The notes under the pieces: model-generated | The model's input: the letters and a program-made list of their open reading frames with translations, nothing else | What the model was told of the DNA's origin: nothing | Database searches by the model: none | Assembly: GCA_965224085.1 (NCBI GenBank) | Contig: CBDCYI010000011.1 | Location: 1,184,001-1,248,000 of the forward strand | Source of the DNA: Candidatus Marinacidobacterales bacterium | Lineage (GTDB): Bacteria > Acidobacteriota > Vicinamibacteria > Marinacidobacterales > SMYC01 | DNA length: 64,000 nt | Reading direction: 5' to 3' | In this document: one piece after another, positions 1,838 through 57,243 of the stretch | How positions within the stretch are numbered: the stretch's first letter is position 1 | How the letters are laid out: each line of letters opens with the position of its first letter | Translations under genes and position numbers: made by a program

Positions 1838-1840
1838 CCG

Positions 1841-2155: not shown

Positions 2156-2190
2156 GTGAACCTCCCCTGTTTTAGAATGTCTGTAAACCG

Positions 2191-5225: not shown

Positions 5226-5232
5226 TTTTCGT

Positions 5233-5309: not shown

Positions 5310-5322
5310 GTTTGTGTTCGAT

Positions 5323-5516: not shown

Positions 5517-7206
5517 CTAGTACCCGTCCTGACAGGTGTAAGAGGTTGAGAAAAAAGGGGTAATCGCAAATTTAGGGCTAGCCTTCTGAGGGAGTGTCGT
5601 TTAGTATCGAGTCGACAAAAACGCAGATTCTAAACGACTTAACTCCAAAGGAGACCAGCCCTAAATGCGAAAAACGATCAACCCACAACCAAGCCTTCGC
5701 GAGCCCTGGCTGGAGCTGGAGCACGCACGCGAACTCGAAACGATATCATCGCTGCTCGATGCCCATCCTAAGCTCAATGAGCTGGTACTGCAAGACCTGA
5801 GGTCGGTCACCCCATCGGCAGGGAGCGATGTTGGTCGTGGGGGAATGAGCGCGGAGCAGGTTCTCCGGGCGTTGTTGGTCAAGCAGCTGAATCAGTTCAC
5901 CTATCGGGAGCTGGCGTTTCACTTGGCAGACTCTCGAAGCTATCGGACGTTTTGCCAGCTCGGCATCATAGAGCCGAGCCCGTCGAAGTCGACCCTAGCA
6001 GCAAACATCAAAGCCGTGAAGTTCGAAACGCTGGAGAAAATCAACCGAGAGCTGGTGAGTGTTGCCGAGAAGACCGCGATCGAAAAAGGAAGAAAAGTAC
6101 GAGTGGACTGCACGGTAGTGGAGTCGAATATTCATTCTCCTACGGACTCCGAGCTTCTTTATGACTGCGTCCGAGTTCTCACTCGCCTCATGTGCCGAAC
6201 TCGCGAACTGCTGGGTACAGTAGTGGTCTTCGGCAATCGAACGCGTCGAGCGAAGAGACGTCGACTGGGAGTTCTAAACGCGAAGGATAAGGAACAAAGG
6301 CGTCGCGTCTATCGAGATCTACTGAAGGTGTCGGAAGAAACCTATCGCTCCGCTCAACGCGTTGCAGACCAGTTGGACGAGTCCGGCTTGACCGAGCCGG
6401 TGAAGCGAGCGAGTGCGGAGAAGATCGCCGCGGATTTTAAGCACTTTCTCGTCCTCACCGAAAAAGTCATCAACCAAACTCGGCGTAGAGTGATTGATGA
6501 AGAGCGTGTGCCTGCGGAGGAAAAGGTCGTTTCGATCTTCGAAGAACACACCGACATTATTCGCAAAGACCGGCGCGAGACTCTCTACGGTCACAAGGTG
6601 TGTTTGACTGGTGGCTCGTCCTCGATGATTTTGGATTGCGTGATCTTGGATGGGAATCCGTCCGATTCAACTCTCGCGGAAACCATGATCGACCGTCAAG
6701 TCGAACTCTACGAACGGGCCCCGCGCCAGGTTGCCTACGATGGCGCGTTTTCTTCAAAGGCAAACTTGGAAGCCATCAAAGGCAAGGGAGTTGAAGATGT
6801 TGCCTTTACCAAGGCTCACTTCGCGGTGACCGATATGGTCAAGAGTTCCTGGGTCTATCAACGCCTACGGCGATTTCGCTGCGGAATCGAAGGCGTCATT
6901 TCGTTCTTGAAACGAGTCTTTGGTCTCGACCGATGCACATGGCGCTCATTGCCTTCTTTCAAATCCTACGTATGGAGTTCCATCATCACCTGCAACCTGT
7001 TGGTAATGGCAAGGCACCTATTACGATAATAATGATTGCTCTTACTGCGTTTATAGCCATGGATTGCTGACGATTCGCCTCTCGTTTCGTCCAAGATTTT
7101 CATTCGCTTCCGAGCCTACGAGGTGCCGACTGAAAACGTATAATACCCACATCTTCGATAGGCCTCTCGTACACCACAAGTTATGGTGTTTCTGGACAGG
7201 AACTAG
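5517..7206 (+). mobile_element. Complete insertion sequence (ISNCY/IS5-like DDE)
   Basis: Imperfect TIRs CTAGTACCCGTCCTGACA and TTTCTGGACAGGAACTAG. CTAG is duplicated on both flanks (5513-5516 and 7207-7210). Confidence 0.85.
5665..7029 (+). CDS. DDE transposase (ISNCY/IS5-like), 454 aa
   Basis: VRVDCTVVESNIHSPTDS, SIFEEHTDIIRK, AYDGAF and R.GIEGVIS.LKR motifs; AAGGAG RBS. Confidence 0.93.
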   Translation: MRKTINPQPSLREPWLELEHARELETISSLLDAHPKLNELVLQDLRSVTPSAGSDVGRGGMSAEQVLRALLVKQLNQFTYRELAFHLADSRSYRTFCQLGIIEPSPSKSTLAANIKAVKFETLEKINRELVSVAEKTAIEKGRKVRVDCTVVESNIHSPTDSELLYDCVRVLTRLMCRTRELLGTVVVFGNRTRRAKRRRLGVLNAKDKEQRRRVYRDLLKVSEETYRSAQRVADQLDESGLTEPVKRASAEKIAADFKHFLVLTEKVINQTRRRVIDEERVPAEEKVVSIFEEHTDIIRKDRRETLYGHKVCLTGGSSSMILDCVILDGNPSDSTLAETMIDRQVELYERAPRQVAYDGAFSSKANLEAIKGKGVEDVAFTKAHFAVTDMVKSSWVYQRLRRFRCGIEGVISFLKRVFGLDRCTWRSLPSFKSYVWSSIITCNLLVMARHLLR

Positions 7207-14274: not shown

Positions 14275-15233
14275 TTCCTGTCCAGAAACACCATAACTTG
14301 TGGTGTACGAGAGGCCTATCGAAGATGTGGGTATTATACGTTTTCAGTCGGCACCTCGTAGGCTCGGAAGCGAATGAAAATCTTGGACGAAACGAGAGGC
14401 GAATCGTCAGCAATCCATGGCTATAAACGCAGTAAGAGTAATCATTATTATCGTAATAGGTGCCTTGCCATTACCAACAGGTTGCAGGTGATGATGGAAC
14501 TCCATACGTAGGATTTGAAAGAAGGCAATGAGCGCCATGTGCATCGGTCGAGACCAAAGACTCGTTTCAAGAACGAAATGACGCCTTCGATTCCGCAGCG
14601 AAATCGCCGTAGGCGTTGATAGACCCAGGAACTCTTGACCATATCGGTCACCGCGAAGTGAGCCTTGGTAAAGGCAACATCTTCAACTCCCTTGCCTTTG
14701 ATGGCTTCCAAGTTTGCCTTTGAAGAAAACGCGCCATCGTAGGCAACCTGGCGCGGGGCCCGTTCGTAGAGTTCGACTTGACGGTCGATCATGGTTTCCG
14801 CGAGAGTTGAATCGGACGGATTCCCATCCAAGATCACGCAATCCAAAATCATCGAGGACGAGCCACCAGTCAAACACACCTTGTGACCGTAGAGAGTCTC
14901 GCGCCGGTCTTTGCGAATAATGTCGGTGTGTTCTTCGAAGATCGAAACGACCTTTTCCTCCGCAGGCACACGCTCTTCATCAATCACTCTACGCCGAGTT
15001 TGGTTGATGACTTTTTCGGTGAGGACGAGAAAGTGCTTAAAATCCGCGGCGATCTTCTCCGCACTCGCTCGCTTCACCGGCTCGGTCAAGCCGGACTCGT
15101 CCAACTGGTCTGCAACGCGTTGAGCGGAGCGATAGGTTTCTTCCGACACCTTCAGTAGATCTCGATAGACGCGACGCCTTTGTTCCTTATCCTTCGCGTT
15201 TAGAACTCCCAGTCGACGTCTCTTCGCTCGACG
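14275..15233 (-). mobile_element. 5'-truncated inverted copy of the IS at 5517-7206 (equivalent to 6244-7202)
   Basis: Reverse complement of 6244-7202 with identical translation (one SNP noticed in the 3' non-coding part). It lacks the terminal CTAG and the 5' half. Confidence 0.93.
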
Positions 15234-29410: not shown

Positions 29411-29752
29411 CCGTCCCGCCGCGGCGGAAATCGCTCAGGAGCCCGGCGCCTGGAAGCTGGCGTTAAAGGATCGTCAAGTCCTGCTCCTCGGGAAAGCCTA
29501 CGAGGGCCGCGCGATGTCGGCCTTCGAGTACTACGGTCACAATCGCGAAAAGCTGCTTGAGCGAGTCCGACAGGGTTCTCCAAACCTATCGCGCGCTTTC
29601 ACTCGACGTAGAGCCGCAAGGACCCCTGGCATGTGGTCGAGAATCCAGAGATGTCCCTCTCCGCGCAGGGGAGTCGAGGCACGGCCCGATGTCTCATCTT
29701 CTCGACGACAAATCGCGCTCGGACGGGTACAATTCATCTGGAAGGAGAGACG

Positions 29753-30102
29753 ATGCGCCTCAAGTCCCTGGTCGCGGTCGTCGTTGCCTCCCTCGCCGCA
29801 GGGATCAGTCTCGGTCAGTTCTCGTTGTTCGAGCGCTTGGACCTCGGCGGGGAGCCGGATCTCTCGAGCGCGCCGGAGTTCGTGTTCGCGCGCGTGCAGT
29901 TCGAGGGAACGTCCGGGCGCCGCCGCGGGGGATGGGCACACGACTACCCGCGGGCCGAGCAGAACCTTCTCAGAATCCTCGACGAGCTGACAGCCGTGCA
30001 CACCGAGCCCGCCGCCCACACGATCGTCTCGCTCGCGAGTCCCGAGATCATGAAGTACCCCGTGCTGTATTTCAGCGAGCCTGGCACGTGGGGCCTCACG
30101 GA
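29753..30102 (+). pseudogene. DUF4159-domain protein, 5' part (interrupted by the IS256/twintron)
   Basis: Signal peptide, FVFARVQF, WAHDYPRAEQNL and YP.LY.SEPG.W. It joins in frame to 39423 once the element and one TSD are removed. Confidence 0.9.
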
Positions 30103-30199
30103 GGGGATGGTCGAGTAGCTCAGCCATTCGGCTTTCGCCCTCACAGATCCGAGCGTGCGGCTTTCCCGCACTCGGCTCCTCCTGAAGGTATACCCGAAA

Positions 30200-31579
30200 T
30201 CAGACAAGGCAAGGTAGTCGGGACGGAGTGAGGTGAGGGACTGGTAGGGGAAAGCGCTCCAACAACAAGTGAAAACGAGGCCAGGTCATTCGGCGCTGAC
30301 TCCGCCGACGAAGGCTTCGAAACCACAACCGTGTCACCTCCTCAGAAAAGGATTGGAGAGAGCGGATGTTGCTGGGAAGTCCGTAGTACGCGTAGTGACC
30401 GCGCAGCACCTGGCAAAGCCAGCGATGCTGGACGGCGACTGGAGCATGCATACGTTGCTTCGCGCGAAGCCGTAGCGACTTGAGTTTGGCTCGTAGCCGC
30501 TGGCTCTGCGTTTTGCGCTTCACGACGAAACGGCCATCGCGGGTTCTCCCACAATAATGAGTGAAACCCAGGAAAGCGAACGTCGCACACCGCCGAAGGC
30601 CCCGTTGCTCGCGTGACAAGGAAGGTAATCTCCCGAACTCGAGCAAACGGGTCTTGTTCTCGTGGAGCGCAAGCCCGAATCGGGCTAGTCGCTCCTTGAG
30701 CGCTCTCATCATCCTGCTGGCATCGGTCCGATGCTGGAAGCCCATGACGAAGTCGTCAGCGTATCGCACGATGGAAATACGGCCTTGTGCTTCGAGCCGG
30801 CGCCATCGATGAACCCACAGATCTAGAACGTAGTGCAGAAAGACGTTAGCCAAGAGCGGGCTCACACCTGCCCCTTGCGGTGTCCCTTCAGTTGTCTCGC
30901 TCCACTCTCCTTTCTCCAGTACGCCGGCTCGCAACCACTGACGGATGAGTCGAAGGATGCGTTTGTCGGCGACCCGGTGCGAAAGCATCCGCATCAACCA
31001 CTCGTGGTCCACCGAGTCGAAGAACTTGCGGATGTCCGCGTCGAGAACCCAGTTCACGCGTTGCGTCATGAGCGCGGTGTGGAGCGCGTGCAACGCTTGG
31101 TGCGGGCTCCGTCCGGGCCGAAACCCGTACGAGAACCCGATGAAATCGACTTCGTAGACGGCGCTCAAAACCTCGGCTACCGCTCCTTGGACAATCTTGT
31201 CTTCCAGTGCGGGGATGCCAAGAGGGCGCTTTCCGCCATCCGACTTAGGAATGTACACGCGCCGCACCGGTAGTGGTCGGTAGCGACCGGCGTGTACCCG
31301 CGAGCAAAGATCCTTGATGTTGCTCACGAAGTTCTTCTCGTAATCGGCGACAGTCTCTCCGTCGACACCAGCGCTTGCGCTGCGCTTCAACCGACGAAAC
31401 GCTCGATAGAGCGCTTCGTGATCCACGTGATGCAGCAACGCAGTGAACCGAGCCTTTCTATCTCGCTTCGCTGCTTCGTTCACCCGCGTGAGATTTGGCG
31501 GTAAGGCGACCCGGCGCTGTGTCCGGACCTTAGCCCTCTCCCGTGGGTTCCCTCCAGGCCGATCCCTTCCCTCCACCAT
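30200..31579 (-). CDS. ltrA: Group II intron A reverse transcriptase/maturase (no endonuclease domain); start uncertain
   Basis: RPLGIP, SYGFRPGR, DADIRKFFD, GTPQG, RYADD and FLGF motifs plus domain X. Confidence 0.93.
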   Translation of the reverse strand: MVEGRDRPGGNPRERAKVRTQRRVALPPNLTRVNEAAKRDRKARFTALLHHVDHEALYRAFRRLKRSASAGVDGETVADYEKNFVSNIKDLCSRVHAGRYRPLPVRRVYIPKSDGGKRPLGIPALEDKIVQGAVAEVLSAVYEVDFIGFSYGFRPGRSPHQALHALHTALMTQRVNWVLDADIRKFFDSVDHEWLMRMLSHRVADKRILRLIRQWLRAGVLEKGEWSETTEGTPQGAGVSPLLANVFLHYVLDLWVHRWRRLEAQGRISIVRYADDFVMGFQHRTDASRMMRALKERLARFGLALHENKTRLLEFGRLPSLSREQRGLRRCATFAFLGFTHYCGRTRDGRFVVKRKTQSQRLRAKLKSLRLRAKQRMHAPVAVQHRWLCQVLRGHYAYYGLPSNIRSLQSFSEEVTRLWFRSLRRRSQRRMTWPRFHLLLERFPLPVPHLTPSRLPCLV

Positions 31580-31606
31580 CTCGTTGCCTTCGATAGCTTC
31601 CTCAGT

Positions 31607-33639
31607 GTCGGGTCGGAGGGGGCGCACCGCAGCGCTGACCCCCGTCCGCCGCTCAAACCGGACATACAGTTTTCCCGTATCCGGCTTTCACAAAGGTTGG
31701 ATTATTCATCGCGGCTTGATGGAAGGAATCAGGAAGACAAAGCGTACGAGGCCCATCTCATCGTAGAGCTGACGCTCCGGGAGCTGCTTCCACCCCCGAC
31801 AGCGCCAGCGTTTGAACCGATGCGACCAGATACGTCGCAGGATCCAACGATCGAGACGCGCGAAGAGCTTGCGGACGTGAGCTTTATGATAGTAAAGACC
31901 CCAACCGCGAATAACCGGGTTGATCTCGTCGATTAGCTGCTGCGTACTCACAGGAGCTTTGCGACAGGTCCGTCGCCGAATCTGATCCTTGAAGTGCTGG
32001 AGCGACTTCTGTCGAGGGTACGCGTACAGGTCACCCTTGCGGACACCCGTACGGATCTTGTGTGAGGGTAGGGCCAAAGGGCGACTACCCCGCTTGATCT
32101 TGTATCCCAAGAACTCGAAGCCGTGTGCAACGTGAACGATACGAGTCTTCTCCACGTTCAAGGTTACACCCAACGTCGTAAGGATCATCCGGGCTTCGGC
32201 CAGCACCTTCTGGGCCTCTGCCTTGGTGCAGCATGTCACGACCCAGTCGTCGGCATACCGCGTCAGGCGATAGCCACGATGGCGCATCTCCCGATCAAAC
32301 GGAGTCAAAAGGACGTTACTTAAGATCGGTGAGACCACACCGCCTTGCGGTGCACCTTGCTCGGTCGGGAGCCGTCTCCCCTCCGCCATGCAGCCTGCTT
32401 TGAGCATGCTGCGAATAAGACGAAGGACGCGACCATCCGACACTCGCTTGGCAACAAGAGCGAGGAGCTTCTCATGGTCCACAGTCCCAAAGAAATTGGA
32501 AAGATCCGCATCCACGATCCACTCGTAACCCTCTTCGATCTCTTGCCAGATCTTGCGTAAAGCATCCTTTGTCGATCTTCCTCGTCGATATCCGAAGCTG
32601 GCGGCATCGAACACCTGCTCGAAGATCGGTTCCAACCGGTTCTGCAGTGCCTGCTGACACACGCGGTCATAAACGGCCGGAATGCCGAGCGGGCGGAACT
32701 TTCCCGGTTGTCCAGCCTTGGGAATGAGTTTCTGCCGAACAGGTAGTGGACGATAGGCATCGGTCTTGAGCTCCTCATGGAGTCGGTTGAGGTGCGCATC
32801 AAGCTGCTCCTCAAACTCGTCCAGAGTTTGTCCATCGATGCCACCGGCACCCTTGTTCCGCTTCACTCGGTTCCAGGCCAGCTCCAAGTTCTTCCGCTTG
32901 TATATCTTGTCCACCAGAGAGTGGACCTTCCTCTCACCCGTTGGGTTCAACCAGGCCGACAGTTTCCTCGGACGATCACTTCTGGGTCTTTCACTAAAGG
33001 AACTTATCCGCGTCATCGCCCTTACTCGTCTGTCATCCTTGTTGTCACCAACCACCTTTGCCAGCCCCCTTCCCCAGCCCACTCGGCTGCCGATCTCTCG
33101 ATCACACGACTTTCACCGCGCTTCAGGTACTATTGGGCTGTCCGACGACTCACCCGGCTTCACTTCCCATTTCGCTCTCGCTTATAGGGTCGCTTATCCC
33201 GACGCCACTCGGGAACCCAATGAGCCCTCCTGGGGTCACGTCCAGATCTTCCGTACCGTGCCGTCCGCAAACACCTTGATTCGGTGGGTGAATGAGAACG
33301 CCTTCGCCTCCATAGTGCAGGCTCGACCTTGCCCCACCTTTGGCCGACCGGTTCATCAACGGGGTCGCCCCCTCGATTACGGCCCGGTACTGCTCCGCAT
33401 ACCCTTCAGATTCCACCTCGCGGTGGACACCCTGTCCTCCAGTTGTCCAGTGGACAGAACCCGAACTTAGGTACATCCCCTTGGCAGTAGCCATCGTTTC
33501 CAACTTCGTGCCCGTTTAGGGTTCTCCTTATCCGCGTTCCCCGGCCAGCGAGGCGTTACCCCCGCTTTTGGATATGGCGCTCCTCATCCGAGCACCAGAG
33601 GGACTTCAACCTTCCTGATCTGGACGCTGCCCAGCACAC
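31607..33639 (-). mobile_element. Group II intron B (inner, class F-like, tentative), left copy
   Basis: 5' GTGTG at 33639 and 3' ...CCGACCCGAC at 31607; mirror image of 35878-37910. Confidence 0.92.
31706..33016 (-). CDS. ltrA: Group II intron B reverse transcriptase/maturase (no endonuclease domain)
   Basis: RPLGIP, SFGYRRGR, DADLSNFF, GAPQGG and RYADD motifs; INPVIRGW..YY in domain X. Confidence 0.94.
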   Translation of the reverse strand: MTRISSFSERPRSDRPRKLSAWLNPTGERKVHSLVDKIYKRKNLELAWNRVKRNKGAGGIDGQTLDEFEEQLDAHLNRLHEELKTDAYRPLPVRQKLIPKAGQPGKFRPLGIPAVYDRVCQQALQNRLEPIFEQVFDAASFGYRRGRSTKDALRKIWQEIEEGYEWIVDADLSNFFGTVDHEKLLALVAKRVSDGRVLRLIRSMLKAGCMAEGRRLPTEQGAPQGGVVSPILSNVLLTPFDREMRHRGYRLTRYADDWVVTCCTKAEAQKVLAEARMILTTLGVTLNVEKTRIVHVAHGFEFLGYKIKRGSRPLALPSHKIRTGVRKGDLYAYPRQKSLQHFKDQIRRRTCRKAPVSTQQLIDEINPVIRGWGLYYHKAHVRKLFARLDRWILRRIWSHRFKRWRCRGWKQLPERQLYDEMGLVRFVFLIPSIKPR

Positions 33640-34134
33640 ACTATGAATCGGTCCGACTTCCGGCCTCAGCTCAGCACCGCGCTTCGGTTTTCCCTTGCGC
33701 GACGCCCCCATCGGTGACCATTCCGATGGACCCGGCCGGACCTCCTGGGTCCCGAAAGGAACTCTTCGTACGTGATGTGGTCCACGACCCCGGCGGAGCG
33801 TAACCATCTCGCGATAGCGATGGCCCACATGCTGCCTTCATTGACGGGAATCAACTCGGCCTTCCGCGATATTCAGCATTTCGAGGCTACATTCACACAC
33901 CCTGCACGACCCCTGTCTACGCTTCGGACCCCGCGTTGCCACGACGCCCGCAAGACTCGGTCCCGACCTGTCCGCTACGACTTTTGGTCGGATTGGACTT
34001 CCACCCATAGGCTCCTTTCAGTTAGCCCAGCGCACTCCCGCCGGCTGTTGAATTTGGGGTAGCGGCGGCTCCTTGGCCGGCCTAAGAATAGGTCTGCCAA
34101 ACAACCGTCTCCAGAGGGGGACAAGGAGCCACCA

Positions 34135-35430
34135 ATGCCTAGGAAATCAAAGAAGCCAGTAAGAAAGCAAACGCACTCGCCTACGGGCAAGGTAGTTGGC
34201 CAAGCCGGTCAGATACTGCTACCGATGATAGCTGGGATCGCGGCCACGAAGGCGGATCTGACGGAATGGGTGTACGAGCAAGGACTGACAGCTCTGCACC
34301 TACTGCTCAGAGAGGACGCCGAGGAGGTCGCGGGGCTCAAGGGCAAGCACGAGAAGGAGCGAACTCATAACCACTGGGGGAGCACGAACGGAGAGCTGAG
34401 CTTCGGTGGTCGTCGCATCCAAGTGTCGCGACCTCGAGTGCGTTCGAAGTCTGGTGAGGAGGCGTCGCTTCCACACTTCGAAGCCTTCCGCGAAGAAGAC
34501 CCGCTTCCAGAGCGAGTGTTGAATCAGATCTTGGTGGGGGTATCGACCCGAAATTACGAACGGAGTCTGGACAAACCCGCGGCCAAGTTGAAGTCTCGTG
34601 GCACGAGCAAGAGTGCCGCCAGCCGTCACCTCGTAAGCCAGACGACGAAGAAGCTCGAGCAATACCTGTCTCGGCGGCTAGAGGAGTACGAACTTGCGGC
34701 ACTGATGATGGATGGCCTTGAGGTGGCCGGCCAGACCGTCGTCGTAACTCTCGGTATCACAATAGATGGAACGAAGGTGCCCCTGGGTATATGGCTGGGC
34801 TCGACGGAAAACTCTCGGGTGTGCACCGCGATGTTGCAGGACCTTCTCGAGCGAGGCTTGCGCGTCGATGAGTCGATTCTCTGTGTAGTGGACGGAGGCA
34901 AAGGTATCCGCAAGGCACTCGTCGACGTGTTGGGGGATCTCGCGGTCATCCAAAGGTGCCAGATCCATAAACTCCGAAATCTTCGCTCGTACCTTCCCAA
35001 GTCTCGTCACGCCTACGTGCTCCAGACGATGAAGAAAGCCTACAAGTGCAAGAGTGCCGACAAGGCGCGCAAGCGACTTCAGGCATTGGTGTCGTGGCTC
35101 GAGCGAAACAGCCACGATGAAGCTGCCGGAAGCCTTCGCGAAGGGATGGAAGAGACGCTCACGGTCGTGAAGCTCGCTCTGCCCGAGTTACTTCGCCAGT
35201 CTCTTGCCACGACGAACGCCATTGAGAATCTCAACGGAACCATTCGAAGAGTATCGAGAAACGTCAAGCGTTGGAAGAGTCCTTCGATGGTTCGCCGATG
35301 GACCGCTCTCGGCGTCGTCACGGCGGAGAAGAAGTTCCGGCGTATCAAAGGCTATCGCCATATGGGCGCTCTCGTTCACGCGCTTAGAAGCAAACAGAAA
35401 TCTCTTGACAGCGATGAGTTTGCTGCCTAA
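34135..35430 (+). CDS. IS256-family (Mutator-like) DDE transposase
   Basis: GVSTR.Y, LMMDG, VVDGGKG, QRCQIHK.RN and TTNAIE.LN..IRR; AAGGAG RBS. Confidence 0.95.
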   Translation: MPRKSKKPVRKQTHSPTGKVVGQAGQILLPMIAGIAATKADLTEWVYEQGLTALHLLLREDAEEVAGLKGKHEKERTHNHWGSTNGELSFGGRRIQVSRPRVRSKSGEEASLPHFEAFREEDPLPERVLNQILVGVSTRNYERSLDKPAAKLKSRGTSKSAASRHLVSQTTKKLEQYLSRRLEEYELAALMMDGLEVAGQTVVVTLGITIDGTKVPLGIWLGSTENSRVCTAMLQDLLERGLRVDESILCVVDGGKGIRKALVDVLGDLAVIQRCQIHKLRNLRSYLPKSRHAYVLQTMKKAYKCKSADKARKRLQALVSWLERNSHDEAAGSLREGMEETLTVVKLALPELLRQSLATTNAIENLNGTIRRVSRNVKRWKSPSMVRRWTALGVVTAEKKFRRIKGYRHMGALVHALRSKQKSLDSDEFAA

Positions 35431-35877
35431 GAGTATTCACAGGTGCCGCCGCTACCCGACCAAATTCAACAGCCGCCGGGAGTGCGCTGGGCTAACTGAA
35501 AGGAGCCTATGGGTGGAAGTCCAATCCGACCAAAAGTCGTAGCGGACAGGTCGGGACCGAGTCTTGCGGGCGTCGTGGCAACGCGGGGTCCGAAGCGTAG
35601 ACAGGGGTCGTGCAGGGTGTGTGAATGTAGCCTCGAAATGCTGAATATCGCGGAAGGCCGAGTTGATTCCCGTCAATGAAGGCAGCATGTGGGCCATCGC
35701 TATCGCGAGATGGTTACGCTCCGCCGGGGTCGTGGACCACATCACGTACGAAGAGTTCCTTTCGGGACCCAGGAGGTCCGGCCGGGTCCATCGGAATGGT
35801 CACCGATGGGGGCGTCGCGCAAGGGAAAACCGAAGCGCGGTGCTGAGCTGAGGCCGGAAGTCGGACCGATTCATAGT

Positions 35878-37910
35878 GTGTGCTGGGCAGCGTCCAGATC
35901 AGGAAGGTTGAAGTCCCTCTGGTGCTCGGATGAGGAGCGCCATATCCAAAAGCGGGGGTAACGCCTCGCTGGCCGGGGAACGCGGATAAGGAGAACCCTA
36001 AACGGGCACGAAGTTGGAAACGATGGCTACTGCCAAGGGGATGTACCTAAGTTCGGGTTCTGTCCACTGGACAACTGGAGGACAGGGTGTCCACCGCGAG
36101 GTGGAATCTGAAGGGTATGCGGAGCAGTACCGGGCCGTAATCGAGGGGGCGACCCCGTTGATGAACCGGTCGGCCAAAGGTGGGGCAAGGTCGAGCCTGC
36201 ACTATGGAGGCGAAGGCGTTCTCATTCACCCACCGAATCAAGGTGTTTGCGGACGGCACGGTACGGAAGATCTGGACGTGACCCCAGGAGGGCTCATTGG
36301 GTTCCCGAGTGGCGTCGGGATAAGCGACCCTATAAGCGAGAGCGAAATGGGAAGTGAAGCCGGGTGAGTCGTCGGACAGCCCAATAGTACCTGAAGCGCG
36401 GTGAAAGTCGTGTGATCGAGAGATCGGCAGCCGAGTGGGCTGGGGAAGGGGGCTGGCAAAGGTGGTTGGTGACAACAAGGATGACAGACGAGTAAGGGCG
36501 ATGACGCGGATAAGTTCCTTTAGTGAAAGACCCAGAAGTGATCGTCCGAGGAAACTGTCGGCCTGGTTGAACCCAACGGGTGAGAGGAAGGTCCACTCTC
36601 TGGTGGACAAGATATACAAGCGGAAGAACTTGGAGCTGGCCTGGAACCGAGTGAAGCGGAACAAGGGTGCCGGTGGCATCGATGGACAAACTCTGGACGA
36701 GTTTGAGGAGCAGCTTGATGCGCACCTCAACCGACTCCATGAGGAGCTCAAGACCGATGCCTATCGTCCACTACCTGTTCGGCAGAAACTCATTCCCAAG
36801 GCTGGACAACCGGGAAAGTTCCGCCCGCTCGGCATTCCGGCCGTTTATGACCGCGTGTGTCAGCAGGCACTGCAGAACCGGTTGGAACCGATCTTCGAGC
36901 AGGTGTTCGATGCCGCCAGCTTCGGATATCGACGAGGAAGATCGACAAAGGATGCTTTACGCAAGATCTGGCAAGAGATCGAAGAGGGTTACGAGTGGAT
37001 CGTGGATGCGGATCTTTCCAATTTCTTTGGGACTGTGGACCATGAGAAGCTCCTCGCTCTTGTTGCCAAGCGAGTGTCGGATGGTCGCGTCCTTCGTCTT
37101 ATTCGCAGCATGCTCAAAGCAGGCTGCATGGCGGAGGGGAGACGGCTCCCGACCGAGCAAGGTGCACCGCAAGGCGGTGTGGTCTCACCGATCTTAAGTA
37201 ACGTCCTTTTGACTCCGTTTGATCGGGAGATGCGCCATCGTGGCTATCGCCTGACGCGGTATGCCGACGACTGGGTCGTGACATGCTGCACCAAGGCAGA
37301 GGCCCAGAAGGTGCTGGCCGAAGCCCGGATGATCCTTACGACGTTGGGTGTAACCTTGAACGTGGAGAAGACTCGTATCGTTCACGTTGCACACGGCTTC
37401 GAGTTCTTGGGATACAAGATCAAGCGGGGTAGTCGCCCTTTGGCCCTACCCTCACACAAGATCCGTACGGGTGTCCGCAAGGGTGACCTGTACGCGTACC
37501 CTCGACAGAAGTCGCTCCAGCACTTCAAGGATCAGATTCGGCGACGGACCTGTCGCAAAGCTCCTGTGAGTACGCAGCAGCTAATCGACGAGATCAACCC
37601 GGTTATTCGCGGTTGGGGTCTTTACTATCATAAAGCTCACGTCCGCAAGCTCTTCGCGCGTCTCGATCGTTGGATCCTGCGACGTATCTGGTCGCATCGG
37701 TTCAAACGCTGGCGCTGTCGGGGGTGGAAGCAGCTCCCGGAGCGTCAGCTCTACGATGAGATGGGCCTCGTACGCTTTGTCTTCCTGATTCCTTCCATCA
37801 AGCCGCGATGAATAATCCAACCTTTGTGAAAGCCGGATACGGGAAAACTGTATGTCCGGTTTGAGCGGCGGACGGGGGTCAGCGCTGCGGTGCGCCCCCT
37901 CCGACCCGAC
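35878..37910 (+). mobile_element. Group II intron B (inner), right copy, inserted in domain III of intron A
   Basis: 5' GTGTG after ...ATTCATAGT. EBS1 ACTATG (36201-36206) is the exact complement of CATAGT. D5 AAGCCGGATACGGGAAAACTGTATGTCCGGTTT; 3' ...CCCGAC, followed by ACTGAGGAAG. Confidence 0.93.
36501..37811 (+). CDS. ltrA: Group II intron B reverse transcriptase/maturase
   Basis: Translation identical to 31706-33016; YADD motif. Confidence 0.94.
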   Translation: MTRISSFSERPRSDRPRKLSAWLNPTGERKVHSLVDKIYKRKNLELAWNRVKRNKGAGGIDGQTLDEFEEQLDAHLNRLHEELKTDAYRPLPVRQKLIPKAGQPGKFRPLGIPAVYDRVCQQALQNRLEPIFEQVFDAASFGYRRGRSTKDALRKIWQEIEEGYEWIVDADLSNFFGTVDHEKLLALVAKRVSDGRVLRLIRSMLKAGCMAEGRRLPTEQGAPQGGVVSPILSNVLLTPFDREMRHRGYRLTRYADDWVVTCCTKAEAQKVLAEARMILTTLGVTLNVEKTRIVHVAHGFEFLGYKIKRGSRPLALPSHKIRTGVRKGDLYAYPRQKSLQHFKDQIRRRTCRKAPVSTQQLIDEINPVIRGWGLYYHKAHVRKLFARLDRWILRRIWSHRFKRWRCRGWKQLPERQLYDEMGLVRFVFLIPSIKPR

Positions 37911-37937
37911 ACTGAGGAAGCTATCGAAGGCAACGAG

Positions 37938-39317
37938 ATGGTGGAGGGAAGGGATCGGCCTGGAGGGAACCCACGGGAGAGGGCTAAGGTCCGGACACAG
38001 CGCCGGGTCGCCTTACCGCCAAATCTCACGCGGGTGAACGAAGCAGCGAAGCGAGATAGAAAGGCTCGGTTCACTGCGTTGCTGCATCACGTGGATCACG
38101 AAGCGCTCTATCGAGCGTTTCGTCGGTTGAAGCGCAGCGCAAGCGCTGGTGTCGACGGAGAGACTGTCGCCGATTACGAGAAGAACTTCGTGAGCAACAT
38201 CAAGGATCTTTGCTCGCGGGTACACGCCGGTCGCTACCGACCACTACCGGTGCGGCGCGTGTACATTCCTAAGTCGGATGGCGGAAAGCGCCCTCTTGGC
38301 ATCCCCGCACTGGAAGACAAGATTGTCCAAGGAGCGGTAGCCGAGGTTTTGAGCGCCGTCTACGAAGTCGATTTCATCGGGTTCTCGTACGGGTTTCGGC
38401 CCGGACGGAGCCCGCACCAAGCGTTGCACGCGCTCCACACCGCGCTCATGACGCAACGCGTGAACTGGGTTCTCGACGCGGACATCCGCAAGTTCTTCGA
38501 CTCGGTGGACCACGAGTGGTTGATGCGGATGCTTTCGCACCGGGTCGCCGACAAACGCATCCTTCGACTCATCCGTCAGTGGTTGCGAGCCGGCGTACTG
38601 GAGAAAGGAGAGTGGAGCGAGACAACTGAAGGGACACCGCAAGGGGCAGGTGTGAGCCCGCTCTTGGCTAACGTCTTTCTGCACTACGTTCTAGATCTGT
38701 GGGTTCATCGATGGCGCCGGCTCGAAGCACAAGGCCGTATTTCCATCGTGCGATACGCTGACGACTTCGTCATGGGCTTCCAGCATCGGACCGATGCCAG
38801 CAGGATGATGAGAGCGCTCAAGGAGCGACTAGCCCGATTCGGGCTTGCGCTCCACGAGAACAAGACCCGTTTGCTCGAGTTCGGGAGATTACCTTCCTTG
38901 TCACGCGAGCAACGGGGCCTTCGGCGGTGTGCGACGTTCGCTTTCCTGGGTTTCACTCATTATTGTGGGAGAACCCGCGATGGCCGTTTCGTCGTGAAGC
39001 GCAAAACGCAGAGCCAGCGGCTACGAGCCAAACTCAAGTCGCTACGGCTTCGCGCGAAGCAACGTATGCATGCTCCAGTCGCCGTCCAGCATCGCTGGCT
39101 TTGCCAGGTGCTGCGCGGTCACTACGCGTACTACGGACTTCCCAGCAACATCCGCTCTCTCCAATCCTTTTCTGAGGAGGTGACACGGTTGTGGTTTCGA
39201 AGCCTTCGTCGGCGGAGTCAGCGCCGAATGACCTGGCCTCGTTTTCACTTGTTGTTGGAGCGCTTTCCCCTACCAGTCCCTCACCTCACTCCGTCCCGAC
39301 TACCTTGCCTTGTCTGA
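37938..39317 (+). CDS. ltrA: Group II intron A reverse transcriptase/maturase; start could be 37938 or 38034
   Basis: Translation identical to the left copy; YADD motif. Confidence 0.93.
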   Translation: MVEGRDRPGGNPRERAKVRTQRRVALPPNLTRVNEAAKRDRKARFTALLHHVDHEALYRAFRRLKRSASAGVDGETVADYEKNFVSNIKDLCSRVHAGRYRPLPVRRVYIPKSDGGKRPLGIPALEDKIVQGAVAEVLSAVYEVDFIGFSYGFRPGRSPHQALHALHTALMTQRVNWVLDADIRKFFDSVDHEWLMRMLSHRVADKRILRLIRQWLRAGVLEKGEWSETTEGTPQGAGVSPLLANVFLHYVLDLWVHRWRRLEAQGRISIVRYADDFVMGFQHRTDASRMMRALKERLARFGLALHENKTRLLEFGRLPSLSREQRGLRRCATFAFLGFTHYCGRTRDGRFVVKRKTQSQRLRAKLKSLRLRAKQRMHAPVAVQHRWLCQVLRGHYAYYGLPSNIRSLQSFSEEVTRLWFRSLRRRSQRRMTWPRFHLLLERFPLPVPHLTPSRLPCLV

Positions 39318-39422
39318 TTTCGGGTATACCTTCAGGAGGAGCCGAGTGCGGGAAAGCCGCACGCTCGGATCTGTGAGGGCGAAAGCCGAATGGCTGAGCT
39401 ACTCGACCATCCCCCTCACGGA

Positions 39423-39821
39423 AGCCGAGGCGGTGAACTTCCGCGAATACCTGTCGCGGGGTGGGTTCGCGATTTTCGATGACTTCGACGGCGAATGGGA
39501 TTGGCAGGTCTTCGAAGCGAACATGGCCGAGGTGCTCCCTGGCCGGCACTTCGAGCTCTTGGAAGAATCCGATCCCATCTACCAGAGTTTCTTCTCCATC
39601 GAGGATCTCGACGTCATCACGCACCCTATGGGTCACGCCTATCCGCCGATGTTTTTCGGCATCCGCGACGACGCCGGCCGCCTGCAGGTCGTGGCCAACT
39701 TCAACAACGACATCGGGGACTACTGGGAGTGGTCGGACCAGGGTTGTGGTACCCGATTGACTTGTCGAACGAAGGCTACAAGCTCGGGGTCAACTACGTG
39801 ATTTACGCACTCACGCATTAG
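39423..39821 (+). pseudogene. DUF4159-domain protein, 3' part, with an extra frameshift near 39743
   Basis: EA.NFREYL.RGGFAIFDDF, NNDIGDYWEWSD, then YKLGVNYVIYALTH in a shifted frame. Confidence 0.88.
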
Positions 39822-54929: not shown

Positions 54930-56085
54930 GTGCGTCCAGCTAAGGCTGGCGTGTTCAGTGGGAGTCAGTCCCACCGGGGCAAGAGCCAGAAGCCCCGTAG
55001 CTTGGATAGCAGGAAGGAGGGAAACCGAATGACCTGAAGCCTATCGACAAAGCCATCGTAAGGGATGGTGAGCGAGTCATCGGGCCGTAACGCAAGTGAA
55101 CGCAGAAGTAGCCTCGAAAGAAGTCACTCCGGAGGCCGAGCCCTTGTTTGGGGGGTGAAGGCAGCATGGGACGTCGCAGATTGGCCGAAGCGTCCTCGCA
55201 CTCCGGCGGGGTCGCAGCGACAGCACGGTGACAAGGACACGCTAAGCAACTGGAGAGGCCCTCCTCGTCCCATAGGGAGACCCGTGAAGCAACGCCGTCA
55301 GTATAACCGGCATCCCCCGGGAAATCGGACGGCAGGCGAGAGGGAGTCGGAGGGGTCCATATTAGCGATGAAGCGGAGTAATGCCCGTGGAGCGAAGGGG
55401 CCCTACTGTACAAGGAATCTTTTGACCAATGGGAGGCAGAGGCGATGACACAAGCGCCGATAGAGCTGCAAGACCTGAGACGAAAGATATATGCGAAGGC
55501 GAAGGCGGATAAGCGCCATCGCTTTTGGGGCATCTACGTCCACATCTGCAAGGAGGAAACGCTTCGCAAAGCCTACGACCGGGCAAAGGCCAACGGCGGC
55601 GCCCCGGGAATTGATGGGGTGACGTTCGAGTCCATTGAGGCCTCGGACGGAGGGGTTGCGAGTTTCGTCGAGCAGTTACGGGACGAGTTGGTGAGAGACG
55701 ACTACCGGCCCCAGCCGAATCGGCGCAAGGAGATACCCAAGGACGGCGGCAAGAAAGTCCGCGTGCTGGGTATTCCCACGATCCGAGACCGGGTGGTGCA
55801 AGGTGCCGTCAAGCTCATCTTGGAGCCCATTTTCGAGGCAGACTTCCAACCAGGCTCGTTTGGGTACCGGCTTAATCGGAGTGCTCATCATACGATACAT
55901 CGGGTCGTGGTGAGCATCACTCAGGAAAAGACACGCGTCATCGATTTGGATTTGAAAAGCTACTTCGACAATGTCAGGCACCACATATTGATGGAGAAAG
56001 TGGCTCGTAGGGTCAGCGACCGACAAGTGCTTCGCCTGTTGAAGTTGATGCTCAAAGCGAATGGCAAGAAAGGAGTTCCTCAGGG
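54930..56085 (+). mobile_element. Group II intron C, 5' half only
   Basis: 5' GTGCG at 54930; D1/D3 motifs (GAAGGCAGCAT, GGAGTCGGAGGGGTCCATATTAGCGATGAAG...GAAGGGGCCCT); D5/D6 absent. Confidence 0.85.
55445..56085 (+). pseudogene. ltrA: Group II intron RT/maturase truncated after the PQG motif
   Basis: APGIDG, R.LGIPTIRDR, DLDLKSYFD and GVPQG, then a junction; no YADD. Confidence 0.9.
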
Positions 56086-57243
56086 CTCGGCCGCATTGTG
56101 CGGGTAGGCGTTCCAATCGTCGATGCGCCCTTTCCACGCCGGGCGGTAGTCGAGCCGGGCATGGTTGCCGTAAATCGTGTAGGTGAATGTTGACACCAGC
56201 ACACACAACGACGCCCGCGGTTTGCCGTGAAGTGCGCACACGAAAAAAGGCATCGCGTCGTAGTGGTCACCGCACACGATACGCGCGGCGTACACGCCGC
56301 AGGGGAGATCCTCCGGGATGGTGAACGAGAAGTCCGTCTTCCAGCCGAAGTCATAGATGTCGTCTTCGTGAAAGTGAATCGCGCCGTATTGCCCCGGTGC
56401 GTGACGCCAGCACATCTCGTTACCGTCCCAGCGCGCGCCGGTCATAGCACGCGCCGGCAGGTTGATGAGCTCACCGTGGAGCGCCAAAGCGGTATCTTCG
56501 ATGCGGGTGGTCGAGATACCGCGGCTGAAGTCCCATGCGGCCACCGGAGGGTCGAGGGGCGTGTCGGCGGAGAGAGCTTCCGCAGTGAACGCACGAGCGA
56601 AGATACGAGGGGAGTCGATCTTTCCGTTGTAGAGGTGGCTTGCGGTATCCTTCGTGAACAGGATCTGGTCAACGGCTGACGTGTCCGCGTCCGTGTGCAT
56701 CGTGATCCAGAACTCGCTCGCCACCCCGTCCGACAACGGCAGGCTGCCGACTCGGAGCTCTCCCGCGTCGGCATGAAGCGCCAGAAACACCCGGTACCAG
56801 CGTCGATGGATGAGAGCAGAGCCGGTGCTGACCTTTGCGCCCCCCACGCGCCCCTCGATGCTCCCGGTACTGTCGAGCGACAAGCGGGCGAGCGACTCGG
56901 TGCCGGCGCCCAAACACATGATTACCTGCTCGCCCCCTCCGACAGCGGTCGGCCAGATGTCGGCAACCAGAGTGAAGGAATCCATCGACGGGAGACGGGC
57001 GGCGGTTTTGATGAGCGCATACGAGCCGGGTGAGAACGATTGCTCGCGAGAGGGATAGCTGCCCTCGAACTCGGACGCTACCGGATTCTCGATGAGACCG
57101 GGACCGGCCGGATTGGGATCGGCGCATACCACCCGCACCAGCCGTGCGTGGTAAGGATCGCGCGAAAGGCTGCTGACCTTGAACTCGATGCTTTCGCCGG
57201 CGCGCACCGACAATCGATTGGTATAGCCGATCAATGAAAGCAT
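56086..57243 (-). pseudogene. N,N-dimethylformamidase large-subunit family protein, 3'-truncated
   Basis: GY..RLS...GE.I.FKVSS, DPNP.GPG, LamG-like region, YGAIHFHEDD and TFTY..Y.N; ends at the junction with the intron fragment. Confidence 0.8.

What the first reader, a model, noticed from the sequence alone, without database searches (positions are those of the whole stretch)
30095..39422. Four-level nesting: gene > IS256 > group II intron in both terminal inverted repeats > second intron inside each
Seen in sequence: an 8-bp direct repeat CTCACGGA (30095-30102, 39415-39422) brackets a 9312-bp insert in a DUF4159 gene, and removing the insert restores the frame (EPGTWG-LTE-AEAVNF). The insert begins GGGGATG and ends CATCCCC. 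After those 7 nt each end is interrupted by a 3926-bp group II twintron (30110-34035 on minus, 35482-39407 on plus). The TIR resumes at TCCCGCCGGCTGTTGAATTT and AAATTCAACAGCCGCCGGGA around an intact IS256 transposase. Established: IS256 elements make 8-9-bp TSDs and need intact TIRs; group II introns start GTGYG and end AY. Inference: the retroelements have symmetrically occupied both transposon ends and separated the cleavage tips from the subterminal binding sites by 3.9 kb. That should immobilise this IS copy while leaving its transposase able to create new intron targets in trans. I do not know of a described case with both TIRs occupied by twintrons.
Basis: partly seen in the sequence, partly recalled or inferred. 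Interest (0 to 1): 0.95.

Follow-up and report, generated by a model that had tools for sequence, protein, structure and literature searches.

The report
Nested introns in both transposon ends
A jumping gene sitting inside a bacterial gene has had both of its ends invaded by a self-splicing intron that specialises in such ends, and each intron copy carries a second intron that specialises in other introns; the layering is real and tidy, but each layer is of a kind already described.

Summary
An IS256-family insertion sequence (1460 bp without its guests) sits in a DUF4159 gene with an 8-bp target duplication. Each terminal inverted repeat is split 7 bp from the tip by an identical 3926-bp group II twintron.

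It is not a one-off or a fold-back artefact. In this genome 12 of 14 ends of this IS are occupied and 2 are empty. None of the 4 full-length copies has both ends free. In 11 other genomes the same IS has uninterrupted ends.

The outer intron belongs to a compact, endonuclease-less lineage. Its relatives in other phyla also sit next to IS256-family ends, with EBS1/IBS1 covariation. The 7-bp distance from the tip is shown by target duplications in 3 of those loci.

The inner intron homes into domain IV of other introns.

Immobilisation of the IS is an inference. The "new targets in trans" idea has nothing to act on in this assembly.

Precedents exist: RmInt2 in both inverted repeats of ISRm17, and the Thermosynechococcus twintrons. 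I rate it a new variant of a known kind, of moderate interest. No long read could be laid across the structure.

The parts
29633..30102 (+). 5' part of the interrupted DUF4159 gene, up to and including the left copy of the target duplication
   Evidence: ORF 29633-30118 matches PF13709 profile positions 2-67. Sequence read.
30095..30102 (.). Left copy of the 8-bp target-site duplication, CTCACGGA
   Evidence: The empty-site joint 30093->39414 has 9 nt of ambiguity in runs X1 and X2.
30103..30109 (+). Left 7-nt tip of the IS (GGGGATG), cut off from the rest of IRL
   Evidence: The same tip is contiguous with TCCCG... in other genomes.
30110..31606 (-). Left twintron: 3' segment of the outer intron (IEP ORF, D5-D6)
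   Evidence: RF00029 at 30110-30180 scores 53.2 bits against 40. The ORF 30200-31627 is the mirror of the right-hand RT. The arm is identical to the right arm.
31607..33639 (-). Left copy of the inner intron (2033 nt), inside domain IV of the outer intron
   Evidence: RF00029 at 31607-31689, RT ORF 31706-33082. 100% identical to all 7 copies in the genome.
33640..34035 (-). Left twintron: 5' segment of the outer intron (D1-D3 and the start of D4)
   Evidence: RF02005 at 33778-34001 scores 140.9 bits against 49.
34036..34057 (+). Inner 22 nt of the left inverted repeat (IRL)
34135..35430 (+). IS256-family (Mutator-type DDE) transposase, 431 aa, intact
   Evidence: PF00872 at E 4.5e-42. NF033543 scores 224.9 bits against 150. 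The same 431-aa ORF is present in all 4 full-length copies.
35460..35481 (+). Inner 22 nt of the right inverted repeat (IRR); it is the 5' exon of the right twintron and ends in IBS1, CGGGA
35482..35877 (+). Right twintron: 5' segment of the outer intron (starts GTGCG; EBS1 loop UUCCCG at about intron nt 186-191)
   Evidence: RF02005 at 35516-35739. EBS1/IBS1 covariation.
35878..37910 (+). Right copy of the inner intron (starts GTGTG, ends GAC). Its RT/maturase ORF is 36435-37811.
   Evidence: Boundaries come from comparison with uninterrupted outer-intron copies. RVT_1 and GIIM. TIGR04416 scores 393 bits against 300. RF00029 at 37828-37910 scores 41.3 against 40. YADD present.
37911..39407 (+). 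Right twintron: 3' segment of the outer intron. The IEP ORF probably starts at ATG 37938 and ends at 39317. D5-D6 lie at 39337-39407.
   Evidence: RVT_1. TIGR04416 scores 365.3 bits against 300. RF00029 scores 53.2 bits. YADD, AGC triad and 5-nt D5 loop.
39408..39414 (+). Right 7-nt tip of the IS (CATCCCC); it is the start of the 3' exon
   Evidence: 12 of 12 outer-intron 3' ends in the genome are followed by CATCCCC.
39415..39422 (.). Right copy of the target-site duplication, CTCACGGA
39415..39801 (+). 3' part of the interrupted DUF4159 gene
   Evidence: ORF 39310-39801 matches PF13709 profile positions 62-191.

Best explanation
The locus is the product of a chain of three target specificities, not a coincidence.

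(1) An IS256-family insertion sequence transposed into a DUF4159 gene and made an 8-bp duplication. This IS is 1460 bp, has 29-bp TIRs and is common at 94-97% identity in related genomes.

(2) A compact group II intron without an endonuclease domain then retrohomed into the same site in each TIR. The intron is 1893 nt and its domain 5 has the 5-nt loop described for classes IIE/IIF. The site lies 7 bp inside the tip, with 5' exon ...CGGGA and 3' exon C.... The EBS1 loop UUCCCG pairs with CGGGA. Because the TIRs are inverted repeats, the two introns face outward in mirror image.

(3) A second intron (2033 nt) inserted into each outer intron 27 nt upstream of the outer IEP's likely start codon. 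It homes to a ...TAGT|A site at the start of domain IV of other group II introns. Alternatively the 3926-nt twintron retrohomed as one unit.

Shown:
- the anatomy;
- the empty and occupied versions of every site;
- the lineage-wide association of the outer intron's relatives with IS256-family ends;
- EBS1/IBS1 covariation.

Inferred:
- the order of events;
- that the IS copy is immobilised, because its cleavage tips are 3.9 kb from the subterminal repeat;
- that intron spread has effectively shut down this IS in this genome.
For: Anatomy

Census in the same genome
- There are 4 full-length IS cores, all with an intact 431-aa transposase.
- 14 inner-TIR ends were found. 11 abut an intact outer-intron 5' end, 1 abuts a truncated one and 2 are empty, reading ...CCGGGA|CATCCCC.
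- 12 of 12 outer-intron 3' ends are followed by CATCCCC and then unrelated flanks.
- A second copy, C4:252508-259772, has a twintron at one end, a single outer intron at the other and its own 8-bp duplication, CCCGGCAG. That asymmetry cannot come from a fold-back.
- The outer intron also exists without the inner one: 4 full copies of 1893 nt.
- The inner intron exists once outside the outer one.

Other genomes
- The IS core is found in 16 of 41 relatives' genomes.
- 11 of 11 loci read from other genomes have both ends uninterrupted. 6 have perfect 8-bp duplications.
- The outer intron at near-identity was found only in G000, plus a 534-nt piece in G002, among 55 genomes of the order.
- The inner intron was found in 1 of 41 genomes.

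Lineage of the outer intron
- Of 79 loci encoding RT relatives, 8 have an IS256-family transposase ending about 200 nt upstream of the intron, on either strand.
- 3 Bradyrhizobium loci show target duplications that place the intron 7 nt from the tip, with the far end empty.
- 1 locus, L041, has related introns in both ends of one IS.
- In the window's outer intron plus 19 hand-picked relatives (20 sequences), the EBS1 loop changes together with the last 5' exon bases. There are three compensatory types.

Inner intron
- Its only other home, C9:853583-855615, is inside a third, ORF-deleted group II intron. RF02003 scores 120 bits upstream of it.
- An unoccupied copy of that third intron lies at C4:1590845-1591737.

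Population data
- Runs X1 and X2 carry the empty DUF4159 site.
- X7 contigs bridge IS core -> outer -> inner and inner -> outer 3' end -> tip.
Against: - No read or contig spanning the whole 9.3 kb was available, since only contigs were served. The exact pairing of two full twintrons on this one copy therefore rests on the assembly.
- No contig listed shows the occupied DUF4159 junctions in an independent run. X7's contig stops 2 nt beyond the tip.
- Splicing, retrohoming and loss of transposition were not tested.
- The RNA run X14 shows only an IS end joined to CATCCCC at another locus. That could be an intron-free IS rather than a spliced transcript.
- The IIE/IIF class assignment rests on ribozyme size and the 5-nt D5 loop only.
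- No EBS2/IBS2 pairing could be identified. Five or six base pairs cannot explain the specificity seen.
- Not all relatives sit in IS ends. L044 lies beside virB8/virB9-like genes.
- For 6 of 10 loci checked, no opposite IS end was found.
Confidence: 0.85

Rival explanations
1. Assembly artefact. The inverted 3.9-kb arms come from a fold-back (chimeric) read or a collapsed or mirrored repeat, and the real IS copy has at most one occupied end.
For: The arms are identical apart from 1 base in 3955. No spanning read could be examined. The genome holds many identical copies of both introns, which are hard to place.
Against: - Both unique DUF4159 flanks lead through a 7-nt tip into an intron 3' end, and the flanks carry a proper 8-bp duplication.
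- The single mismatch lies in the TIR, at one of the three positions where IRL and IRR differ in other genomes.
- All intron copies in the genome are 99.5-100% identical, so identity of the arms is not special.
- Doubly occupied copies recur with asymmetric content (C4: twintron plus single intron; C5), which a fold-back cannot produce.
- A related doubly occupied IS exists in an unrelated MAG contig, L041.
Confidence: 0.05
2. The 9.3-kb composite (IS plus two twintrons) is itself the mobile unit. It transposed into DUF4159 with the introns already aboard, so the IS is not immobilised.
For: The duplication lies outside the 7-nt tips, as expected whichever form moved. The empty site in related populations shows the insertion is recent, while all intron copies are identical.
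Against: - The three doubly occupied copies differ in content: twintron/twintron, twintron/single, and single/truncated twintron. They are therefore not copies of one composite.
- IS cores differ by 0.1-0.9% while the introns are about 100% identical, so the introns spread after the IS copies diverged.
- From general knowledge of DDE transposases, recalled and not tested here, the subterminal binding site and the cleavage site must be contiguous.
Confidence: 0.07
3. The two arms are identical because of gene conversion between inverted copies after independent, older invasions, not because the invasions were recent.
For: Among the 4 full-length copies, 6 of 17 variable columns lie at TIR positions -6, -8 and -10 next to the introns. 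There they form mosaics of the IRL and IRR types. The same positions are almost invariant in 10 copies from other genomes. This is what heteroduplex spilling from the intron into the 22-nt inner TIR would give.
Against: Intron copies at unlinked loci on four contigs are equally identical, which conversion within one IS does not explain. The empty DUF4159 allele in X1 and X2 argues that the whole structure is young. This rival concerns timing only and is compatible with the main explanation.
Confidence: 0.25

Closest known systems
RmInt2 in the inverted repeats of ISRm17 (Sinorhizobium meliloti GR4; PMC4615759 and PMC5894124, passages read)
   Same: An endonuclease-less group II intron whose natural target is the left and right inverted repeat of an insertion sequence. 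This gives two sites per IS on opposite strands. The related RmInt1 is said to block the spread of its host IS.
   Different: - RmInt2 is class D (IIB3). The outer intron here has the 5-nt D5 loop and small size described for IIE/IIF.
- The host IS here is of the IS256 family. The family of ISRm17 was not seen in the passages read.
- No twintrons are mentioned for RmInt2.
- Whether single ISRm17 copies carry RmInt2 at both ends is in Fig. S1, a supplement I could not open.
Thermosynechococcus elongatus twintrons and IS-targeting introns (PMC2882425, passages read); Methanosarcina acetivorans nested introns (known to me only as cited in that paper)
   Same: One intron family inserts at a conserved site at the start of the ORF, in domain IV, of another intron family. 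The inner copies are identical to each other. The authors discuss mobility either as a composite or separately, and also note introns that target insertion sequences.
   Different: - There the inner introns are ORF-less and depend on the outer IEP. Here the inner intron has its own intact RT/maturase.
- Here the inner intron lies 27 nt upstream of the outer IEP's likely start, not between two ATGs.
- There the twintrons are not described as sitting in IS ends.
Group IIE/IIF introns (PMC3753933, passages read)
   Same: Small ribozyme (450-700 nt without the IEP), a 5-nt loop in domain V, no endonuclease domain, and EBS1/IBS1 critical for splice-site choice.
   Different: That paper deals with self-splicing in vitro. 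The passages I read say nothing about IS ends as natural targets. Class membership of the two introns here was not tested by phylogeny.
Group IIC introns (PDB relatives GsI-IIC RT 6ar1; E. rectale/R. intestinalis RTs 7uim, 5hhj)
   Same: These are the closest solved RTs for both IEPs. They share small size, lack of an endonuclease and short exon pairing. The 67-69% DNA relatives of the outer intron in G003, G010 and G012 sit after hairpins and in tandem arrays.
   Different: The PDB holds few intron classes, so nearest-in-PDB is not a class assignment. The outer intron is found at one defined sequence (the IS end), not after terminators.

Membership tests
IS256 family insertion sequence | Single DDE transposase of the Mutator/IS256 type | tested here: met
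   NF033543 scores 224.9 bits against a cut-off of 150. PF00872 at E 4.5e-42.
IS256 family insertion sequence | Terminal inverted repeats and an 8-9-bp target-site duplication | tested here: met
   With the introns removed, the TIR is 29 bp: 28 of 29 matching in this copy and 26 of 29 in copies from other genomes. The 8-bp duplication is seen here, in C4 and in 6 of 11 loci from other genomes.
IS256 family insertion sequence | Copy-out/paste-in transposition through a circular intermediate | not testable with these tools
   Needs PCR for circle junctions.
Mobile group II intron (outer, 1893 nt) | Ribozyme domains: 5' GUGYG, D1-D4, D5 with AGC, D6, 3' AY | tested here: met
   Starts GTGCG and ends GAC. 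RF02005 scores 140.9 bits against 49. RF00029 scores 53.2 against 40. D5 fold.
Mobile group II intron (outer, 1893 nt) | Intron-encoded RT/maturase in domain IV | tested here: met
   TIGR04416 scores 365.3 bits against 300. YADD present. Pfam gave no endonuclease domain.
Mobile group II intron (outer, 1893 nt) | EBS1-IBS1 pairing with the 5' exon; occupied and empty homing sites | tested here: met
   The UUCCCG loop pairs with CGGGA. Covariation is seen across the outer intron plus 19 relatives, 20 sequences in all. There are 12 occupied and 2 empty ends in this genome.
Mobile group II intron (outer, 1893 nt) | Splicing and retrohoming activity | not testable with these tools
   Identical copies at many loci suggest recent mobility, but there is no direct assay.
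Mobile group II intron (inner, 2033 nt) | Ribozyme domains and RT/maturase | tested here: met
   Starts GTGTG and ends GAC. RF00029 scores 41.3 bits against 40. TIGR04416 scores 393 against 300. RVT_1, GIIM and YADD are present. The D1-D4 model RF02001 reaches only 27.9 bits against 32, below its gathering score.
Twintron | A complete intron inside another intron, with the uninterrupted outer form also known | tested here: met
   The inner intron lies at outer nt 396/397. The genome holds 4 uninterrupted outer copies and 6 copies carrying the inner intron. The joint 35877->37911 appears in runs X1 and X2.
Group IIE/IIF class | Small ribozyme; 5-nt loop in domain V | tested here: met
   The outer intron has about 465-510 nt outside the ORF and a GAAAG loop. 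The inner has about 656 nt and a GAAAA loop. The criterion is taken from PMC3753933 (passages).
Group IIE/IIF class | IEP groups with class E or F in a phylogeny; alpha' at the tip of a D1d3 stem-loop | not tested
   No reference set of classified IEPs was at hand.
Class D introns of the RmInt1/RmInt2 type | IEP of class D, IIB3 RNA structure | not tested
   S. meliloti plasmids hold an RT 67% identical to the outer IEP. Its 3' exon starts with C, whereas RmInt2 is described as using a U-A EBS3/IBS3 pair (PMC4615759). It is therefore probably a different intron, but this was not resolved.

The most novel reading that the evidence does not exclude
The outer intron lineage does not merely recognise a sequence that happens to lie in IS256-family ends. 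It may exploit the transposition reaction itself.

The intron sits in the strand that serves as template when copy-out replication is primed from the flanking 3'-OH left by transposase cleavage, 7 nt inside the tip. An endonuclease-less intron RNP reverse-spliced there would find a ready primer. The transposase would then stand in for the missing endonuclease domain, and the intron would act as a built-in brake that fires when the IS becomes active.

The distance of 7 nt is seen in the window's IS (tip GGGGATG) and is TSD-verified in three Bradyrhizobium IS copies (tips GATCGTG/GGTCGTG). A third tip type, GGTGCCG, shows the same conserved 7-nt 3' exon but could not be verified. That is compatible with this reading, but equally with a conserved TCCC motif at TIR positions 8-11. 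The outward orientation of the introns follows from TIR symmetry and is not independent evidence.
Probability: 0.12. Interest if true: 0.8.

Novelty: new variant of a known kind. Interest (0 to 1): 0.5.

Why it matters
The locus is a clean natural example of stacked genetic parasitism. A gene is hit by an IS, the IS by an intron that specialises in IS256-family ends, and that intron by a second intron that specialises in introns. Empty and occupied states of every level are preserved in one genome and its relatives.

In this genome no full-length copy of the IS keeps two intact ends, while relatives without the intron carry many intact copies. That makes it a good system for testing whether retrohoming introns can shut down an IS family.

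The outer intron's relatives sit in IS256-family ends in several phyla. I did not find this described in the papers searched. It would give a defined, short DNA target for studying how endonuclease-less introns of this compact type find their sites.

Tried and rejected
- EBS2/IBS2. A script listed all pairings of 6 nt or more between the 5' exons and the first 396 nt of the outer intron. Besides EBS1, nothing stood out from what a GC-rich sequence gives by chance, so no EBS2 is claimed.
- Hairpin in the 5' exon, as for IIC targets. By eye, 6-bp stems can be drawn in IRL and IRR in different registers. I did not test this and make no claim.
- Long-read confirmation. Only Logan contigs were served. 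No listed piece spans the stretch. Parts without cover in X1, X2, X7 or X14 say nothing.
- Spliced RNA. The RNA run X14 gave low-depth contigs over parts of both introns, and an IS end joined to CATCCCC with a different flank. This fits an intron-free IS elsewhere as well as a spliced transcript, so it is not used as evidence.
- Opposite IS ends. For 6 of 10 relatives' loci (L042, L043, L047, L054, L055, L068), no convincing opposite end or duplication was found.
- S. meliloti pHRC017 (L118) and Bradyrhizobium p1 (L119). tblastn with the window's transposase found nothing. Pfam gave only a sub-threshold Transposase_mut match (E 0.0069) beside the L118 intron. The plasmid gene tables are incomplete.
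- Truncated twintrons at C4:891077 and C5:2155234. The DNA beyond the break matches other repeated elements. I did not follow this up.
- Literature. Six searches found no paper on introns specific for IS256-family ends or on twintrons in IS ends. The library lacks most subscription journals. In particular, Toro et al. 2002 on class E introns and Dai & Zimmerly 2002/2003 were seen only as references. Supplements, including Fig. S1 of PMC4615759, were not opened.

Full report
OBSERVATION

- CTCACGGA occurs at 30095-30102 and 39415-39422.
- Between the two copies lie 9312 bp that begin GGGGATG and end CATCCCC.
- The repeat finder reports inverted arms 30103-34057 and 35460-39414 of 3955 nt. A script finds a single mismatch in them, in the inner part of the TIR.
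- The ORFs on either side, 29633-30118 and 39310-39801, match successive parts of PF13709 (DUF4159). Frame arithmetic shows they join in frame once the insert and one repeat copy are removed.
- The same empty-site joint, 30093->39414 with 9 nt of ambiguity, is present in contigs of two public runs from two studies, X1 and X2.

THE THREE ELEMENTS

The insertion sequence
- The central ORF, 34135-35430, is an IS256-family transposase. It scores 224.9 bits on NF033543 against 150, and matches PF00872.

The outer intron
- Each arm holds an outer group II intron of 1893 nt.
- It starts GTGCG and ends GAC.
- RF02005 covers D1-D4 at 140.9 bits against 49. RF00029 covers D5-D6 at 53.2 bits against 40.
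- Its RT/maturase scores 365.3 bits on TIGR04416 against 300, has YADD, and shows no endonuclease domain.

The inner intron
- It is 2033 nt, at 35878-37910 and mirrored at 31607-33639.
- It starts GTGTG and ends GAC.
- Its RT/maturase has GIIM, scores 393 bits on TIGR04416 against 300, and has YADD.
- RF00029 scores 41.3 bits against 40. The D1-D4 match, RF02001, stays below its gathering score at 27.9 against 32.
- It lies at outer-intron nt 396/397, 27 nt upstream of the outer IEP's likely ATG at 37938.

Class
- Both domain 5 hairpins fold with 5-nt loops, and both ribozymes are small.
- PMC3753933 (passages read) gives these as traits of classes IIE/IIF.
- The nearest solved RTs for both are IIC RTs, but the PDB holds few classes.
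- I did not test class by phylogeny.

CENSUS IN THE SAME GENOME

The genome has 12 contigs and 6.87 Mb.

IS copies
- BLAST finds 4 full-length IS cores, 99.1-100% identical, plus fragments.
- All four have the intact 431-aa transposase ORF.

IS ends
- A motif search finds 14 inner-TIR ends:
  - 11 abut an intact outer-intron 5' end.
  - 1 abuts four intron bases followed by unrelated DNA.
  - 2 are empty and read ...CCGGGA|CATCCCC (C4:895324 and C7:303).
- All 12 outer-intron 3' ends are followed by CATCCCC and then different flanks.
- Of the 8 ends of the 4 full-length copies, 7 are occupied. No copy has two free ends.

Other doubly occupied copies
- The copy at C4:252508-259772 has a twintron at one end, a plain outer intron at the other, and its own duplication, CCCGGCAG.
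- The copy on C5 has a plain outer intron at one end and a truncated twintron at the other.
- These asymmetric cases show that double occupancy is a recurrent biological outcome. A fold-back artefact would not produce them.

Intron copies
- The outer intron exists 4 times without the inner one.
- The inner intron exists 7 times, all 100% identical: 6 inside outer introns and 1 elsewhere.

OTHER GENOMES

- The IS core occurs in 16 of 41 related genomes, usually in many copies at 94-97% identity and across two families of the order.
- In all 11 loci read from 11 other genomes, both ends are uninterrupted. 20 of 22 tips read GGGGATG/CATCCCC. 6 loci have perfect 8-bp duplications and one has 7 of 8.
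Intron-free copies do end in the reconstructed TIR.
- The outer intron at near-identity was found only in G000, plus a 534-nt 3' piece in G002 that is also followed by CATCCCC. That is 2 of 55 genomes of the order.
- The inner intron was found only in G000, 1 of 41 genomes.
- The unpublished genome G027 enters only the tally.

THE OUTER INTRON'S LINEAGE TARGETS IS256-FAMILY ENDS

A scan of one genome per species with the outer IEP returned 79 loci at 48-77% identity. They come from Bradyrhizobium, Sinorhizobium-type plasmids and MAGs labelled Binatia, Armatimonadetes, Gemmatimonadota, Acidobacteria and others.

- In the closest ones, the 5' exon ends in GGGA or GCGA. The 3' exon begins with 7 conserved bases (CACGA[TC]C or CGGCACC) followed by unrelated sequence.
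- tblastn with the window's transposase against all 79 loci finds an IS256-family transposase ending about 200 nt upstream of the intron in 8 loci, on either strand.
- In three Bradyrhizobium loci (L046, L048, L050), the opposite, empty IS end and an 8- or 9-bp duplication show that the 7 bases are the IS tip.
- In L041, an uncultured-proteobacterium MAG contig, the opposite end is also occupied by a related intron in inverted orientation. This is a second, independent case of both ends being taken.
- I aligned domain 1 of the window's outer intron with 19 hand-picked relatives, 20 sequences in all. These were relatives with a recognisable 5' end, chosen from the 79 loci plus two plasmid loci. 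A terminal loop changes together with the last 5' exon bases:
  - UUCCCG here with CGGGA;
  - UCGCG with CGCGA;
  - GCUGG with CCGGC;
  - CUCGCA with UGCGGG.
  The last four exon bases pair in 19 of the 20.
- Not every relative sits in an IS. L044 lies next to virB8/virB9-like genes. For 6 of 10 loci checked I found no opposite end.

THE INNER INTRON TARGETS OTHER INTRONS

- Its one site outside the outer intron, C9:853583-855615, lies inside a third group II intron. RF02003 scores 120 bits upstream of it and a weak D5-D6 match lies downstream. The RT ORF of that third intron is internally deleted.
- An unoccupied copy of the third intron lies at C4:1590845-1591737, and a 72-74% relative lies in the window at about 54946-55513.
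- Both homes share ...TAGT|A shortly before the host IEP's start.
- The twintron is therefore the product of a specificity, as in Thermosynechococcus elongatus (PMC2882425, passages read).

HOW IT MOST LIKELY CAME ABOUT AND WORKS

Order of events
- The IS inserted into DUF4159 with intact ends.
- The outer intron then retrohomed into each TIR. EBS1 pairs with CGGGA and the first 3' exon base is C.
- Five or six base pairs cannot account for the observed specificity, so further recognition must exist. I could not identify it.
- The inner intron then entered each outer copy, or the twintron moved as a unit. Identical copies do not allow a choice between these.

Timing
- The IS cores differ by up to 0.9% while the introns are about 100% identical.
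- The empty DUF4159 allele dominates in runs X1 and X2.
- Both observations point to a recent intron burst.

Consequences for the IS
- Transposition works on DNA, so splicing cannot rejoin a tip to its TIR.
- That the copy is immobile is an inference from general knowledge of DDE transposases, and I did not test it.

A side observation
- Of 17 columns that vary among the four IS cores, 6 lie at positions -6, -8 and -10 of the two TIRs. These are the three positions where IRL and IRR differ in other genomes.
- At those positions the occupied ends show mosaics of the two types.
- This would fit gene conversion between the inverted introns running on into the TIR, or co-conversion at homing.

COMPARISON WITH WHAT IS KNOWN

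[quoted passage not shown] RmInt1 is said to block the spread of ISRm2011-2 (PMC4615759 and PMC5894124, passages).
- Mohr et al. list insertion into a conserved site of an IS or of another intron as a proliferation strategy (PMC2882425, passages).
- Every layer here therefore has a precedent.
- I did not find the following described in six literature searches:
  - an intron lineage tied to IS256-family ends at a fixed 7 bp from the tip;
  - twintrons in both ends of one IS;
  - a genome in which no full-length copy of the IS is left with two free ends.
- The library lacks many subscription papers, and supplements were closed.

VERDICT

The finding is real and well explained. It is a new variant of known kinds, not a new category. 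Interest is 0.5. The main open point is direct long-read confirmation of this particular copy.

Noticed in passing
G000 IS ends: window 34041-34045 and 35472-35476; C4:256433, C5:2151630 and others: The TIR positions -6, -8 and -10 next to the intron are IRL/IRR mosaics in occupied ends of this genome, with one novel base. They are almost invariant in 10 copies from other genomes. They account for 6 of the 17 variable columns among the four IS cores. This suggests gene conversion between the inverted introns, or co-conversion at homing.
   Followed up: partly
window 54946-56107 (+): A third type of group II intron. RF02003 (D1-D4-4) scores 118 bits at 54956-55095, and the RT ORF is truncated at 220 aa. 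It is 72-74% identical to the ORF-deleted intron on C9 that hosts the seventh inner-intron copy.
   Followed up: partly
window 6244-7202 and 14275-15233: A 959-nt inverted repeat, reported as 100% complementary, formed by parts of two DDE_Tnp_1 (IS5/IS1182-like) transposase genes. It brackets about 7 kb holding a PMT-type glycosyltransferase and a succinate dehydrogenase/fumarate reductase flavoprotein-like gene. It looks like a composite transposon or an invertible segment.
   Followed up: partly
window 5148-5394 (+): A cluster of three tRNA genes (Rfam RF00005).
   Followed up: no
G000:C11:193429-195341: An outer intron sits in a 17-20-nt remnant of IRL. The rest of that IS has been replaced by the end of another repeated element, which has 8 or more copies in the genome. 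Mobile elements are nested further elsewhere in this genome.
   Followed up: partly
L020 / L024 (G003:C1:7979444-7985009): Introns 67-69% identical to the outer intron stand in a head-to-tail array about 2 kb apart, each after a GC-rich hairpin. This is terminator-type targeting, unlike the IS-end targeting of the window's intron.
   Followed up: no
L041 (MAG contig CAWGIP010000017.1, locus positions 1-4470): An IS256-family element in an unrelated MAG with related introns in both ends, in inverted orientation. This is an independent second case of double occupancy.
   Followed up: partly
runs X1 and X2 on window 30093/39414: The intact, IS-free DUF4159 allele is the form seen in two metagenome studies, at depths similar to the flanks. 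The insertion is therefore a strain-level polymorphism.
   Followed up: partly
L044 (Bradyrhizobium sp. LMG 9283 chromosome, locus positions 590-4470): A 71%-identical relative of the outer IEP sits directly after virB8- and virB9-like genes, not in an IS end. This looks like an ectopic site.
   Followed up: no
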